Shown here one piece after another: positions 39,019 to 46,643 of a DNA stretch of 64,000 nt. A program made the translations under genes and the position numbers. Origin of the DNA: Flaccisagitta enflata (taxonomy: Eukaryota); the NCBI GenBank assembly GCA_965153355.1, contig OZ231126.1, positions 30,194,001 through 30,258,000 on the forward strand, written 5' to 3'. Each line of letters starts with the position of its first letter. Position 1 is the first letter of the stretch. Under the pieces are notes generated by a model. That model searched no databases. It had not been told where the DNA came from and saw only the letters and a program-made list of their open reading frames with translations.

Positions 39019-39051
39019 NNNNNNNNNNNNNNNNNNNNNNNNNNNNNNNNN
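39019..39051. other. Assembly gap (33 N)
   Basis: Run of N directly after an (AG)n/(AGAC)n tract. Confidence 1.
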
Positions 39052-39243
39052 TTACTCTACACCTTGGTCCATCCGTCTGTCCTTCCATAACATTTTTGAA
39101 TTGCAATTGCATTACTGCTCCGGCCCAACCGTCCGCGACTGGATTGCCGTGTATCCGGCCTCATTGCTCAATACCTAACATGCACCTAGTAGTGGAGCCT
39201 AATTGTAATCGTATCAATGTAAAAGAAGGTAAAATTCTCTCAC

Positions 39244-42200
39244 CGGTCTTCCTCTTCGGTGTAGTTCTTGCCCTTGTTGGTGCCGTATTGTAGTCTCAAT
39301 TGGTGGAAGGGAGCTCGATATCTGGCCATCTTCGCGTCGAGGGCTTTCTTAATGGAGATCCTTCGTTGAATCTTGGCCTCTCCGCGTTCGATTTGAGCCA
39401 TGATTTTGTCGTAGTCTGTTAACTCGTTGCAACGATCCCAAAACACCGAACTGTATTCCATCACTTCTTCCGGCGTCTTCCCTTCCACATCCTGAAAGGC
39501 AAAAAGGTGTAGGCAGGATTCTCAGATGGTTGCTCCGTCGGTCAGACTTTGGTGTGTAGTCCATGTCCGGCGTTTTCTTTTCATCACTGACCAAACTCAT
39601 AGTCCGCTACCTTCTCGCATGCGACACAGTGCCTTAAATCTAGTCTTAGGCTGAAATGGGCTTCCATAACGTCTTCGTATAGTTCAGTTTGCCTAAAGAG
39701 AACTATTACTCCACCTAGTTATACCTGTGAGATGTTGTCGATATCATCCCTGCCCCATTTTTCGTTGGCTTTGATAAACTGATTGAAGTCGCGTTTGTTC
39801 CAGTTGGTGAATCCTTGCGTGAGGAGTTGCTCCTTCTCCTCGGCCTCCTCGTCATTGAGGACTTCCGCTTCGTCGATTTTCCGTTGCTCTTCCTTCTGCT
39901 TCTTGGCCGCTTCCGCCGAGGGCAAGTCGGGATCGCGCGGGACTGAGTGAAAGATATATGGAAACTTTTATTGACTGAATGATGGAAAAAGTCACGAGCA
40001 CACCGTCTTGAGAATAAATATTTCTTCCTGAAATGTTTTTCTTAGTCGCGGAGTAATTGTATGTGTGGATATTGATCGACATCGATATCCGGTAGTAGCT
40101 CCTTTGGCACAGTCGAATTGCTCAATCGACAAAACAAAAGAGCAGGCCAACCGTGCCAATCCATGCAATGCTCGCTTGTAATGCCATCGAGAAGATCACC
40201 ACGAAGCTGACGGCAATAGTGCCGGAAAAACGAGCGAGCGCACGCTCAGTCAGCATGGAGAATATCTACATGAAGGCGCTGCGACGCGAATGCGACCGAA
40301 ATCAATATGGGATGTGTCGAAACCGGCGGCGCTGTAATGTCCGCGCAACGAAAGGAAGCGCGAAACACGCCCGTAAGACTAGCATGGCATGATCGCAAGA
40401 ACAGCACCTGTTAAAAGCTTACAGGCAAAAGGATGAAGGGTGGACATTTTCAATATCTCTGAGAGAGGAGAAAGGAAAATGAGCTGAGGATTATGCTTTA
40501 GACAATAAATAATCCAATGGGAACCCCCCCCCCCATATGTTATACATATGGGAAGGAGAGATATACGATAACCTGAAGAGTATCTCTTACAAAGAATAAA
40601 AGGGAAAAAAACATGATGGAGGGAGGAATGAGACCAATCCACTCCGCCTAATGAGCAGTCTTTCCAGGGCGGTAACCTGAGAAATAGTCATAATTTATCT
40701 GGCGGCGCAAAAATAAAACACAAAGGAAAGACCAAAGGGAACAGGTCTGACCGATTTACAAGTCAAAATGGAGCGAATTCCATTTACAACGAAGACTCCT
40801 TTGAGAAATAATCTAAATTATTATGAAAGTACAGGGCAAAAGTCACCCGCGGGAGGGAGAGATGGAGAGCGATTCCCAAACCAACACCCCCCCCTCTTTC
40901 TTTTCCCAAGAAAAGGAGAAGTACAACCTTCGAGGCTCATGATCTCAAAGGGCTAAGAGCCGGAAAAAATATTAACCATAATATTTACATTACATTCTAC
41001 ATACATGTAAGGGAAGGAAGTAGAATGTTAAAGCCATACTTTTTGCACACAACTCCTGAAAAGAGAGGAGGCTAAGAAAGGGAGGCCACTGTCTTGGATC
41101 TGAGAGAGGTAAGGCAGTGGGGAAAATGTGTTACAACTAATGAGAAACAACAGTAGTTCAACAACAGATCGTCCATGAACTAATGGTCATGAACAAGGTC
41201 AAGAATATGACAAACAGAATAAGCTCAGATTCTTAAGGGAACCTTAATGGAACGATATCCATTAACTTCTAAGATCTCCTGAGAGGAACAATCAAAATGA
41301 TTATGACAGAAGCAAACTGATGCCACCTGAAAAAAGGCACATTGCTTAGAAGGGGGGCATCAAAGGAATATTGTCAATTACGACGAAGATTCCCTGTGAA
41401 AAAAACAATCGAAATGATTATGATAGTATGAAGCAGGAGCCATCCAAAGGTGGCCTACAGCTTGAAGGGGCATTCCCCTAGGGGAAAAAGCCTATCCCAA
41501 TCGAGAAAATTTCTGCAAGAATCGATCAAAAAGGACTAAAATTTTAAAACGGCAGGATCCGCTCAGAGGGAGGGGATACTCAGCTAAAAATGGCATCCAC
41601 AATGGGAGATGCCCATCCATCTTTTGGGAATTTCTGTGAGAAATTGTTAAAAGGATGAAAATTTAAGTAGAACCGCCAAAAGAGGCGGTTAGCCCAGCTG
41701 CCAATGACGAATACCGTCTGAAGATGTAAAAGACATCTTGCAGAAACTCCCAACCTAAAAGAGTTAGGGGGGAAAAGAAGCGTTAGACGGAGAAAAGATG
41801 GGCAGAAGGCCCATTGAAGATGTTTCTGAAAGAACCAACTCAATAAAACAAATTTTAGCCCATAGGATCCACCCTAGAGGGTGGGGGCACATAGCGCTCA
41901 TCAACAAATACCGTCCAAGAAGATGCGAAATGAAAACATCTTCCTGACCACAATCCAACCTAAAACAAATTGGGGCGGATACGCAATCAAGACCTAGAAA
42001 TAATAGGGATTGATAAAATGAGCACCCAAGGGCTAAAATCTTGGACAGGATTATCATAAGGCAAGAGATAGACCTGACTCAGTCAAATTAATCTTTTCCT
42101 AAGGAAAATAATAATAATACCGTCCATTCAAGATTTGAATCAAAAAGAAAAACAGGAATGACGGAAACCGGCCCTGGTCCAGGGGGGGTACGCAGGGTAC

Positions 42201-45200
42201 CTAAACTGCCGGAAGAATTGGTTCCTCCCCTGATTCCCACAGAACCATGTTTAACTAAAAAGAATCTGTAGTAAAATCAATTCTTCCGGTTATAGGAGTT
42301 GGAAAAAAGTGAGGTCGAACAGGTCAACTAGGAAAGAAAAGAATATTCATTAGCAATCATCATAACTTCCATTAACAGAGCATTTTGTTGTTCAACAAAC
42401 CTGATGCACAGAATGGTCAATCGACACTTCCCTACTTTTTTCATAGCACTATGACTCACAACCATCGCGAACAATTTGTAATTAAAGACTAGAAACTGAC
42501 CAAAGAAATTTCGGGTAGTTATTTTTTTGATCCATAAAATGAAGAAAAAAGCAACAAGGAATCTGGAATTCACTCAGTAAAAAACGATGGTACCCTAAAA
42601 AAGTCATTTACACATCTAAGGCTACGTTCGTCGTCTGGCCCTGGTCAAATGTCAATACAATCAAAGAGGCTTTGAGGTACAAGAAGGGTTAAATTCAACC
42701 AATGAAATAAACCCATAAAATGACACGAGAGGCGAGGCTAACGTTAGCACCACAAAACTTAGTTTTAGAAGGGGCGCGATATGATAGTTCCGGGAAATGG
42801 TGAAACAGCAAAAATTTCCCAAAACGATGAGGAATTCTTAAGTCGTAGAAACTATAAAATAAAATATGCGAAAAGGTAAATTTTGATTTTCCAAAATAGA
42901 CCTGATCAACGATCCTTGTAAGAACTTACATGGAAATCTCTTACCAGAAGTTATGTAGAATATGCAAACTCGCATATAAAGTATGTCTGCCTTCAATGAG
43001 ACTCCAACCAAATTCTAGAAGGAGACTATCGCCACGACCCCTTCTTCAAGATGCGATCAGAAACCTCGATGATGGCATCTAGTAGGTCCAGGAGGAAGGA
43101 AGGGGTTAATGGTGAGGCAGAAGGCCGAAACTAGAAACAAGTAAACAAGGCGATATACCTCCTCGACCACTCACATCAGGACCTGAATAACATTCAGGAC
43201 CTGACGATTGTACCGCCAATGCAGGAGGAGGAGGAGAAAGATGTCTTTCTTACAAAACAGCTGTAATAGGGTTATTTTTGCATCCAGCTTTTGAAAAATT
43301 TTAACAATAATTGGATGCCATAAGAAACAGTGCCTTGTTCCACTTTTGGTAATCGCCAATGAAGACTAGGAGTATATGGCGATGGCAAGGCTAACAGCCT
43401 TGCAAATGACCACCAGCGTCTACTCAAAGAGGATGGTCAAACCATAATATGTATATAAGCTTCTCATTGCTGGCGACTTCTCTACAAGTTGAGAATCAAA
43501 AACAATTGAATGACAGATTTTTACCTGAAACTTCAATTGGCAATAGAAGTAGTGGAGCAGCCGACCTGAAAGAGCGATAACTTTTCTGAAGGCTGAAAAG
43601 TATGCGTAGAGCGTAAACAACTTCTTACGCATTGATCTTTGGTGCATTGTCCATGATGAATGGAAACACCAAATTGCGGAGAGGCAACCTCCAACGACCA
43701 TACTGTCGCATGACAAAGCATTCCGGAGGAACTTTGCCGACTAAGCGCTATGCCGAATAGAGACTATGCACGTACGACGGCGGCTTCTACGACGGCGCAT
43801 GAGTGGCATTCTTCTCCTCGTAGACAAAACGGCAGCGCCGATGTCGAATGAGGCCCTCGACGGCGAATGATGCAACCCGGACACCGACATGACTCCTAGG
43901 AGACTTGTGAAGGCGTCCTCCGGCGGCGCCGAATCTTCCTCGGCGCTTCCGGCTTCTTCGCCGACGGAACCTCCATGTCCTGAGCCACCCAGTGACTCAG
44001 AAGGCAATCAGCCATGAGCAAAAAACAGAGTGACTTGGCCTGATGAAATTCGTCTTCTACTCTGACAATCACTCATGACAGCATACACAGAGGAATGAGA
44101 AAATATCAAAGGCCTCTTCTAGTATGCCCATTATACCAAGACCCACCATGTTGGCCGAAACCAAGTTAGGAGTGATCTACTCACATCTTCCTGTGCCCCC
44201 TCCAGCGTGCGCAGTGGCAGTGGAGGTGGCAGCGCCATCAGGGATGGACGCCAGGAAGAGGGGGGGGCGCCCCTGGTGCAGCCTTAAAGGTCACCCTGCG
44301 AGCTTGAGGTAGGGTATAATGGTAAGCCACCCCATAGCAGCAGCAGCAGCAGCGACGCAGCGAGGATGAAGGCGAAGGGAGTCGTACATGAAAAGGAAAA
44401 AGAGAGAAAGGGAAAGAATGGATTAATAATTGAGAAATGATGAATCATATGAGAACCAAAAAGGGATGGAGATGGGGATGGATGGAGGGCCATACAAATA
44501 CTCCGCGACTAAGAAAAACATTTCAGGAAGAAATATTTATTCTGTAGTCGCTTCATATTTGTATGTGTGGATGAAATTCCACCAAGGTCCGATATGAGAC
44601 AAAAATCAATCAATCAATCATTACATCCAACCCTGCTCAATTTAACCTTTGATGAAAATACGAGTTTCACTCCTGCTGCATCCTGAAGAAAGCTGCTGCT
44701 GCTGGAGAAGCTGCTGCTGCAGAAGATAAGCATTCTTCTTCTGAATCGTCGCCATCGTAACCCTATGGGCTGGGGGGACGGAGGCGGCAGAAGAGCGGGG
44801 CCTTGATCTGTATGGACAGAGGAACCCGGCAAGGGTGCGGAGAAGCGCGAAGGAGAAGGGGAGGCAACCGGCGACTCTCGCAGCAGCGTAGGACGTTGTA
44901 GAATGATTGCGACGGACTTCGGCGGGCCTTGATCCGCATGGACAGATGGACCCGGCATGGGTACGGAGAAGCGCGAAGGAGAAGTCAGCGGCAATTGGCG
45001 ACCATTGTAGAGGCGCAGGACGCGGGACTTTGACTTGCCATTCAGTCTAGGCGGGCGAAGACGAGATCCAAAAATGAGAAGGAAACTTATCCTTGAAAAC
45101 AGCAGGAGGCAGCCATCTTGTTATGACATCACTTGCTGTTAAATAGACGTCCCAGAATAACTCATTTTTCTGAAAAGTACTCATCCTTGCAGCTTTTCTG

Positions 45201-46643
45201 GAAGATAAAACACTAAAGATTATGAATTAAGCCAAAAAAATTTTTTTTGAAATTTTTCTATGGTGGAAGTATTAGGTCAAAGTAGATATTAGGTCAAAAT
45301 TTCAAAATGAGAATTTTGTAATTCTGATTGCAGATTCAGAATCCTTGCAAAAAACTGTGTGAACAAAGTGCTTTTCTTTTTTTGATATTCCATCAGGAAG
45401 TTTATCAAAATTTTAATTGAAAATCTTGATCGGGTCAAAATTGCTCTTTTGTTTGAAATTGGCCTTATTTGGGTTTTTGACCTCAATTTTGACTATCTTT
45501 CTGAAGGAATATAAAAAAAAGCAGAGCACTTTCTTCACACAGTTTTTTGTGAGGATTCTGAATCTGTAGTCAGATTTACAAAATTCTCATTTTGAAATTT
45601 TGACTATATCTATTTGACCTCATACCTCAAATTCAAAATTTAAAATTTTTCGGCTCAATTATAATCAGTGTTTTATCTTCCAGAAAAGCCGCAAGGATGA
45701 GTACTTTTCAGAAAAATGAGTTTTTCTGGGCCGTCTACTGTTAAAATTGACTCGGTTGCCTGAAACGGACGTGGAACCAGATTCCCGTCCACAGGAAGGC
45801 CCTGCGTGAGGGAACTTGACCGAGGAAAGATACGGACCACTTGTAACAATCGTGACAGTGTGTGAAGTCCTTTAAGGCGATGAACTTACTAATTTTTAGT
45901 AATATTTGGAAAATATTCGGAGCTAATCGACCGGTAGGTTCGAGTAGCGATCAAAAGATGGCATTACAAGCGAGTATTGCATGGATTGGCACGATTGGCC
46001 TGCTCTTTTGTTTTGTCGATTGAGCAATTCGACTGTGCCAAAGGAGCTACTACCGGATATCGATGTCGATCAATATCCACACATACAAATATGAAGCGAC
46101 TACAGAAACAAAGGTATCAAGTCGTTTTCAATTGGACATACTGCAGCAGCTATTAAAGCATACATGAACTATGCAAATCGCAATTAGACGTACATAGCCA
46201 TTAGCGAGTGAAACAAGTGGAGGCGACAAAATAGCATGACAAATACCGCAGACAAAAACAGATATTTTCATCGGTCGTAACAACAACGCAACCTCGTGTA
46301 ATATGCAGCCCCTCCTCCTACCACGGTGACATCACTCTCAAAACTATCCATCATCAACATCATCATCCTCTCACCTTTGTAATTGATGCTCTTTCTGTAG
46401 ACGTAGATTTCCTGATCGAGAAGTTCGAAAAGTCGAGGCGGGAAGAACTGAAAGTCTTGTACGTTGGGTTGTTTGGGGGGTCGAGGGGCCTTCGGGGCTT
46501 TGGGTTCCGACACCCTCAGGGCCTCGCGGAAATAAGCGTCCACGGCGTAATTGGCTTTGCGCTCTCGCTTTGGCGGCTCAATCCAGTGCCCAAGGAGTGA
46601 CTTGTTGTGTTTATCTCTGAAGAGAGAAATAAAGGAAAATGGC

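What the first reader, a model, noticed from the sequence alone, without database searches (positions are those of the whole stretch)
40011..46106. Complete DIRS-type cis machinery (ITRs, terminal extensions, circle-junction ICR) around a dead coding core: a candidate non-autonomous YR retroelement mobilised in trans
Seen: 132-bp inverted terminal repeats with only 2 mismatches, unpaired 46-bp and 18-bp terminal extensions, and an 82-bp ICR equal to the two termini joined head-to-tail at a shared AGA/TCT trinucleotide. The empty site would read gtcttg-AGA-aacaaagg, with no TSD. Established: this is the DIRS1 architecture, in which the ICR templates end restoration and circularisation and a tyrosine recombinase integrates the element at a short core (TTT in Dictyostelium DIRS-1). 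Inference: the cis signals are nearly perfect while gag/pol/YR are shattered, with no long ORF and pol apparently internally deleted. That suggests a recently retrotransposed non-autonomous family with a TCT core, parasitising an active DIRS.
Basis: partly seen in the sequence, partly recalled or inferred. Interest (0 to 1): 0.8.

Follow-up and report, generated by a model that had tools for sequence, protein, structure and literature searches.

The report
Gene-less DIRS retrotransposon, front-placed junction copy
This is one of nine copies of a protein-less jumping element that must borrow its enzymes from intact relatives, and it belongs to a lineage whose essential end-repair sequence sits near the front of the element, probably inside an intron, instead of at the back as in described members of this group.

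Summary
In detail: 132-bp ITRs (2 mismatches) and an 82-bp ICR matching the joined termini at 81/82. The predicted empty site exists exactly, in a second copy of the host ISWI locus. The genome holds nine full-length copies (92.6-98.4% identical, three subfamilies). None codes. The recombinase relic has shared lesions, and the middle 3 kb aligns to no gag/pol/YR, so pol is undetectable, not merely shattered. Trans-mobilisation is the best reading, but no partner with the same termini was found. Two corrections: the invariant core is TT (target WTTYY), not TCT; and the copy is only moderately young. All 16 scorable RT-bearing DIRS1 copies here share that layout, as one clade; 28 of 28 published annotations have a 3' ICR. 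In 8 of 10 families a splice donor lies 57-85 nt before the ICR, which suggests a gag intron; splicing is not shown. The scan noted a protein-less DIRS1 element before in another genome (e1-7787525).

The parts
40011..46106 (-). Whole non-autonomous DIRS1-like element (about 5.0-kb core plus two nested insertions), inside an intron of an ISWI gene and in the same orientation as the gene
40011..40056 (-). 3' terminus: 28-bp right extension (40011-40038) plus 18-bp divergent ITR; complementary to the ICR
   Evidence: terms from PMC3266345 section 10
40057..40188 (-). 3' conserved ITR, 132 bp
40210..40383 (-). Relic of the tyrosine-recombinase C-terminus (GSTR...GDW...FFRHY region), broken
   Evidence: tblastn E 4e-7; hmmsearch E 1.3e-9; 55 bits against controls of 13-26
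40390..43926 (-). About 3-kb middle (plus one nested insertion) that does not align to gag/pol/YR; T-rich on the coding strand
41182..41664 (-). Decayed internal repeat of about 120-bp period (61-63% identity), detected in 8 of 9 copies
42180..42636 (.). Nested 457-bp repeat with a 10-bp TSD; only in this copy and its duplicate L021
43261..43335 (.). 75-bp match (76-79%) to the very end of the LTR of an unrelated non-coding LTR element; detected in 8 of 9 copies, in all three subfamilies
43927..44490 (-). Region after the ICR (predicted intron and start of the main gag exon), alignable as DNA to intact families, best to L095
44491..44572 (-). ICR, 82 bp, about 0.93 kb from the 5' end once the nested MITE is removed
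44642..44755 (-). Poly-Q relic of the upstream gag exon, ending where intact families have their splice donor; no GTRAG donor is left here
45144..45737 (.). Nested 594-bp MITE with long inverted arms and an 8-bp TSD; only in this copy
45957..46106 (-). 5' terminus: conserved ITR (45957-46088) plus 18-bp divergent ITR (46089-46106)
46375..46600 (-). Host ISWI exon upstream of the element (HAND domain, first part; far boundary approximate)
   Evidence: Pfam HAND E 4e-17; donor read
39719..39942 (-). Host ISWI exon downstream of the element (end of HAND; far boundary approximate); acceptor 68 bp from the element

Best explanation
A non-autonomous DIRS1-like retrotransposon family. Its ancestor was a member of a DIRS1 clade that carries the ICR near the 5' end. 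It kept the first ~1.6 kb (5' ITR, upstream exon relic, ICR) and the last ~0.4 kb (YR tail, 3' ITR, right extension). The ~3 kb between became non-coding, by replacement or by decay beyond recognition, before the family spread. Shown: the anatomy, nine copies at unrelated sites, exact ends, an exact empty site and shared lesions. Inferred from the DIRS-1 model: the element is transcribed from its 5' ITR; RT from an intact co-resident DIRS copies it; the ITRs and ICR restore both ends and form the junction; and a borrowed tyrosine recombinase inserts it at a TT core in a WTTYY target with no TSD.
For: Nine full-length copies were found by each of three queries, on six contigs, with eight independent flank pairs and the same end points. 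An exact empty site exists in L211. YR lesions are shared across three subfamilies: the Arg of the GSTR motif is absent in 9 of 9, the Trp of GDW is absent in 9 of 9 (a stop in 8), and a one-base frameshift is present in 8 of 9. A foreign LTR end and an internal repeat are each detected in 8 of 9 copies. A subfamily-specific change at the 5' terminus of subfamily C is mirrored in the ICR of all three members, as ICR-templated repair predicts. Termini and ICR diverge least between subfamilies, 3.1-3.5% against 3.9-13.8% elsewhere. Intact DIRS with open gag, pol and YR frames and 98-99% identical ITRs are present: L048, L086/L087, L090/L091. The 44 nt around the junction match seven co-resident families at 29-34 of 45-48 columns. 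PMC7192593 (passages and section 21 read) shows the ICR is essential and suggests RT acts in trans.
Against: No element with the same termini and open frames was found; the best DNA similarity to an intact family is about 60-68%. The families closest at the junction (L092-L095, L097) each have a broken or interrupted frame in the copy examined. In PMC7192593 a truncated DIRS-1 did not complete retrotransposition in trans in the assay. The conservation contrast between cis signals and the middle is small (3.1-3.5% against 3.9-5.3%). Terminus and ICR differ at 0-2 positions per copy, and one variant (L025) is not mirrored. No cDNA, circle or transcript was observed.
Confidence: 0.8

Rival explanations
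1. Copies of a once-autonomous family that decayed independently after insertion.
For: Full element length (about 5.0 kb against 5.1-5.5 kb for intact copies); a YR tail and the gag start survive.
Against: Copies are 92.6-98.4% identical, yet none has detectable RT, which is 50-54% identical between L048 and seven other intact copies. The lesions, the LTR fragment and the internal repeat are shared.
Confidence: 0.04
2. The family is mobilised by a dedicated autonomous partner with near-identical ends that has been lost, is absent from this assembly, or lies in a sister species, and not by the diverged co-resident families.
For: Recombinases are usually sequence-selective (general knowledge). 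Four 42-66-bp fragments at 83-90% identity to the termini or ICR show that related families existed. A 93%-identical relative is in a public ENA contig (P0001). Only 144 of 575 RT candidates were scored.
Against: The terminus, ICR and interior searches all return the same nine copies. The four fragments have no YR-element coding sequence within 28 kb. The junction-side motif is shared across families.
Confidence: 0.25
3. The copies spread as DNA, by segmental duplication or by recombinase excision and re-integration, without an RNA step.
For: One copy (L021) shares its left flank with the window copy (99.9% over 1,062 bp) and its right flank with L022 (91%), so it arose by duplication, recombination or misassembly.
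Against: The other eight copies have unrelated flanks and precise ends. The ICR tracks the termini, which only the reverse-transcription model requires.
Confidence: 0.08

Closest known systems
DIRS1-like retrotransposons (Dictyostelium DIRS-1; the 28 elements annotated by Piednoel et al. 2011, PMC3266345, Table 3 and Additional file 3)
   Same: Conserved ITR 132 bp, divergent ITR 18 bp, right extension 28 bp, two-part ICR of about 32 + 53 nt overlapping at the junction, NTT-like core, no TSD, length about 5 kb. A 2-bp junction has precedent (BfDIRS2, AA).
   Different: All 28 have the ICR at the 3' end behind the YR motif; here it lies about 0.93 kb from the 5' end. No RT, RNase H, methyltransferase or working YR is present.
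Co-resident DIRS1 clade with 5' ICR (L048, L085-L099; closest L095, L092, L093)
   Same: Same ICR position and flanking motifs, same junction-side motif, alignable first 1.6 kb and last 0.4 kb.
   Different: They encode gag, RT and YR; their termini are only about 60% like this family's; most keep a GTRAG donor before the ICR.
TOC1 of Chlamydomonas reinhardtii (non-autonomous DIRS-order element; recalled and named in earlier scan notes, paper not read)
   Same: Gene-less YR retroelement presumed to be mobilised in trans.
   Different: Split direct repeats (PAT type), not ITR plus ICR.
Pat1-like elements, nematode versus echinoderm form (PMC4157794, passages read)
   Same: Precedent that the internal junction repeat can change position within a YR retrotransposon.
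   Different: Concerns split-direct-repeat elements; no 5' ICR for ITR-type elements appears in the passages read.

Membership tests
DIRS1-like superfamily | Inverted terminal repeats | tested here: met
   132 bp with 2 mismatches; 0-4 mismatches, plus 2-4 gap columns in three copies, across the nine copies
DIRS1-like superfamily | ICR complementary to both termini, overlapping at the junction | tested here: met
   81/82 here; 0-2 differences in each of 9 copies
DIRS1-like superfamily | ICR located at the 3' end, behind the YR | tested here: not met
   The YR relic, the lICR/rICR order and the right extension all put the coding strand on minus, so the ICR is 5'; 28 of 28 published are 3'
DIRS1-like superfamily | No TSD; integration at a short shared core | tested here: met
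   Exact empty site; invariant TT, target WTTYY at 8 of 8 independent sites
DIRS1-like superfamily | Tyrosine recombinase gene | tested here: inconclusive
   Only a broken relic of about 60 codons, clearly homologous (E 1.3e-9); it proves descent, not function
DIRS1-like superfamily | gag and RT/RNase H/methyltransferase genes | tested here: not met
   No hit by Pfam, tblastn, hmmsearch or frameshift-tolerant alignment
Non-autonomous derivative | Coding loss predates amplification (shared lesions) | tested here: met
Non-autonomous derivative | Autonomous partner with matching termini | tested here: not met
   None among the hits, or the 41 RT-bearing loci examined
Non-autonomous derivative | Mobilisation in trans through RNA and cDNA | not testable with these tools
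   Needs an assay, or RNA and cDNA from this species
PAT/Ngaro/VIPER (split direct repeats) | A1...B1A2...B2 direct repeats | tested here: not met
   The repeats are inverted

The most novel reading that the evidence does not exclude
The element derives from an undescribed DIRS1 clade in which the essential ICR has moved from the 3' end into the first intron of a spliced gag gene. Spliced mRNA would then make Gag but could not be completed into an element, and only unspliced RNA could retrotranspose. That would sort messenger from genome, and would explain how a retrotransposon keeps an intron.
Probability: 0.5. Interest if true: 0.68.

Novelty: new variant of a known kind. Interest (0 to 1): 0.48.

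Why it matters
Gene-less hitch-hikers are common among mobile elements. This one is a clean ITR-type DIRS example with an empty site and shared lesions, and it shows which ends (about 1.6 kb and 0.4 kb) were kept. The larger point is the lineage. A 5' ICR departs from the layout given for DIRS1-like elements in the papers read. If it lies in a spliced intron, it offers a simple, testable way for a retrotransposon to separate translation from replication and to retain introns. It also matters for annotation: orienting such elements by a 3' ICR gives the wrong strand.

Tried and rejected
Pfam on the three minus frames of the whole element and the three plus frames of the middle: 0 families. Proteins of the first four YR loci against the nine copies: no tblastn hit. 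Profiles of gag and pol from DIRS1-type loci, and of gag, pol and YR from split-repeat loci: no hit. Frameshift-tolerant alignment: all gag, pol and N-terminal ORF3 segments scored 13-23 bits against controls of 13-26. Motif-like stretches seen by eye in the middle were therefore rejected as chance. Four weak terminal matches (L029-L032) are isolated fragments with no YR-element coding sequence nearby. RNA: no RNA holder was listed for L048. The one same-study run, laid on window 39060-46640, gave 283 reads, none at 99% or more; they lay on ISWI exons with many differences or on short repeat pieces, with no joints. It looks like another species and says nothing about expression or splicing. 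No in-frame spliced gag model passed my thresholds for L048 or L095, and only a weak one for L096. The careful protein tree did not finish; the quick tree is reported. Look-ups of earlier findings by place, by sequence and for a relocated junction returned nothing. A Penelope, LINE or LTR identity was rejected: the RT-bearing insert in L026 is copy-specific.

Full report
1. Observation. The ITRs (40057-40188 / 45957-46088) are 132 bp with two mismatches. The ICR (44491-44572) equals the joined termini at 81 of 82 positions. The longest stop-to-stop frame inside is 168 aa. The element lies in an intron of an ISWI gene on the minus strand; the flanking exons carry the two parts of the HAND domain, and SLIDE follows. 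The same downstream exon occurs three times at 100% on contig C1. The copy near 30.0765 Mb lacks the element and reads gatacctttgtt-TCT-caagacggtgtg, exactly the predicted empty site, with nothing gained or lost. Whether that copy is a paralogue or an uncollapsed allele is unresolved. The host is an animal with a 794-Mb, 9-contig assembly; I did not determine which.

2. Family. Searches with the terminus, the ICR and the interior each return the same nine full-length copies on six contigs (the tool warns that counts are lower bounds). The core is about 5.0 kb. Pairwise identity is 92.6-98.4%, leaving aside one pair depressed by misaligned nested inserts. The copies form three subfamilies with 100/100 support. 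The window copy differs from its nearest independent copies by 2.2% and has since gained a 457-bp repeat (10-bp TSD) and a 594-bp MITE (8-bp TSD). It is young but not fresh. Eight copies have independent flanks; L021 is a mosaic. At those eight sites the invariant core is TT on the coding strand, within WTTYY; TCT is kept at five.

3. What is left inside. An RT query found 144 matches among 144 scored of 575 candidates. I fetched the 16 closest loci besides the query's own and 24 more distant ones. Their proteins hit the family in one place only: the last ~60 codons of the recombinase, on the minus strand at 40210-40383 (tblastn E 4e-7; hmmsearch E 1.3e-9, 7 of 9 copies, 0 reversed controls). 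A frameshift-tolerant profile alignment on five of the nine copies gave 46-55 bits there and control-level scores for every gag, pol and upstream ORF3 segment. As DNA, the first ~1.6 kb and last ~0.4 kb align to intact families in 9 of 9 copies, with 0 control hits. The middle 3 kb does not align. It is 33-41% T on the coding strand against 23-32% in the coding parts of intact elements. It holds a decayed ~120-bp repeat and the 75-bp end of an unrelated LTR, each detected in 8 of 9 copies. The YR relic lacks the Arg of GSTR in 9 of 9 copies and the Trp of GDW in 9 of 9, and is frameshifted in 8 of 9; the window copy is the exception. Whether the middle was replaced or decayed beyond recognition is not settled; the LTR end and the composition favour at least partial replacement.

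4. Orientation and the 5' ICR. Three markers put the coding strand on minus: the YR relic, the order of the two ICR halves (5'-terminus complement first, as in DIRS-1; PMC7192593, passages), and the position of the right extension. The ICR is therefore about 0.93-0.97 kb from the 5' end in copies without nested inserts there. This is inherited. Of 17 DIRS1-type RT loci examined, 16 have a scorable ICR, and all 16 have it 0.6-1.06 kb from the 5' end, ahead of the conserved gag region; L100 was too disrupted to score. They fall into about 10 families. In the supplement of PMC3266345, 28 of 28 elements have the ICR behind the YR motif. As a control, of 80 metagenome loci 23 showed internal repeats, and I scored 16 of these, all distant (31-38% pol identity), as 3' ICR. 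In a quick pol tree of 36 rows, the nine 5'-ICR proteins included form one branch (SH-aLRT 100) with five close metagenome loci, nested among the 3'-ICR rows. Two of those five (L133, L135) have an ICR-like hairpin with the same flanking motifs upstream of gag. Their termini are not in the contigs, so that identity is inferred.

5. Probable intron. I examined 12 copies of the 10 families. In seven families an ATG-initiated, mostly Arg/Ser-rich frame, often ending in poly-Q, stops on a GTRAG donor in phase 2, 57-85 nt before the ICR. An eighth has a donor at the same place but out of phase. GTRAG occurs 0.68 times per kb in these elements. Against this: two families (L086, L088/L099) have no such donor and read through the ICR; the donor is altered in L085; in-frame spliced gag models passed thresholds for five of eight; and the donor-like site in L135 is in phase 0. 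L092 and L093 give similar predicted middle exons. The window family keeps the poly-Q relic but no GTRAG at that site. No RNA evidence was obtained.

6. Mechanism. Shown: cis anatomy, precise TSD-free insertion, shared loss of coding capacity, and intact relatives with open frames (L048: RT E 1e-26, YR E 6.5e-8). Inferred: transcription, reverse transcription in trans, ICR-templated end repair and recombinase integration. PMC7192593 shows the ICR is essential and acts after first-strand synthesis, and suggests RT works in trans, though its truncated construct did not complete the cycle. Termini and ICR are the least diverged regions between subfamilies, by a modest margin. No partner has the same ends. 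Seven families share a junction-side motif at 29-34 of 45-48 columns, so cross-mobilisation is plausible but untested. If the ICR is intronic in the autonomous relatives, only unspliced RNA could be completed; this step is inference.

7. Comparison and novelty. The element works like a DIRS1-like retrotransposon and descends from one, but it fails two listed features (3' ICR, coding genes). I file it as a non-autonomous derivative of a 5'-ICR variant. Eight literature searches showed no report of a 5' or intronic ICR or of an ITR-type non-autonomous DIRS family. The library lacks most subscription papers, including the main reviews of these elements (recalled), and Repbase was not available, so absence is weak. 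Seen: PMC3266345 (passages, section 10, supplement S3; one PPT supplement unreadable), PMC7192593 (passages, section 21), PMC6681497, PMC9210276 and PMC4157794 (passages); all others as listings only. Movement of the internal repeat is already described for Pat1-like elements (PMC4157794), which lowers the surprise. An earlier scan note reports a protein-less DIRS1-type element in another genome (e1-7787525, not checked here).

8. Verdict. A real feature. Novelty: new variant of a known kind. Interest 0.48; 0.68 if the ICR-in-intron reading is confirmed and unreported (probability about 0.5).

Noticed in passing
L101-L124 (G000, several contigs): Split-direct-repeat YR retroelements laid out A1-gag-[B1 A2]-pol-YR-B2, with the junction between gag and pol. 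21 of 24 loci show both repeat pairs and 24 of 24 show B1 before pol; L116 has RT, Dam-like methylase and YR. Probably the echinoderm form of Pat1-like elements (PMC4157794); the figure was not seen.
   Followed up: partly
L021 (G000:C1:30258062-30263604), just beyond the window end: Inverted second copy with the window copy's left flank (the ISWI 3' exons) and a right end and flank like L022 (1 difference in 366). It could be ectopic recombination between copies, a heterozygous inversion splitting ISWI, or misassembly; two patches (equivalent to window 42880-43170 and 43700-44000) are unusually divergent.
   Followed up: partly
window 39019-39051 and G000:C1 30.06-30.27 Mb: The window's ISWI gene is cut at the N gap; its downstream exons continue beside L021, and another ISWI copy lies about 150 kb away in the opposite orientation, mostly 95-98% identical.
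   Followed up: partly
L125-L128: Multi-copy non-coding LTR element of about 5 kb with ~810-bp LTRs that are 99% identical (LARD-like); its LTR end matches window 43261-43335.
   Followed up: partly
L026:956-4510: Copy-specific nested insert with a 1,185-aa frame bearing a PHD finger and RT, probably a non-LTR retrotransposon.
   Followed up: no
L095 (G000:C5 ~32.876-32.886 Mb): The family's closest relative in the 5' region; its YR frame is interrupted by a ~3.7-kb insertion with tandem repeats, while its ITRs are 97% identical.
   Followed up: partly
L086, L087, L088, L089, L098, L099: Two families in which the upstream frame runs through the ICR with no nearby GTRAG donor, a possible intron-less or differently spliced state.
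   Followed up: no
L211:7572-7757: A different 185-bp repeat inserted about 20 bp from the empty site in the other ISWI copy.
   Followed up: no
P0001: A public ENA contig of 3,488 bp encodes a frame 93% identical to a stretch of this family, so the family occurs in at least one other assembly.
   Followed up: partly
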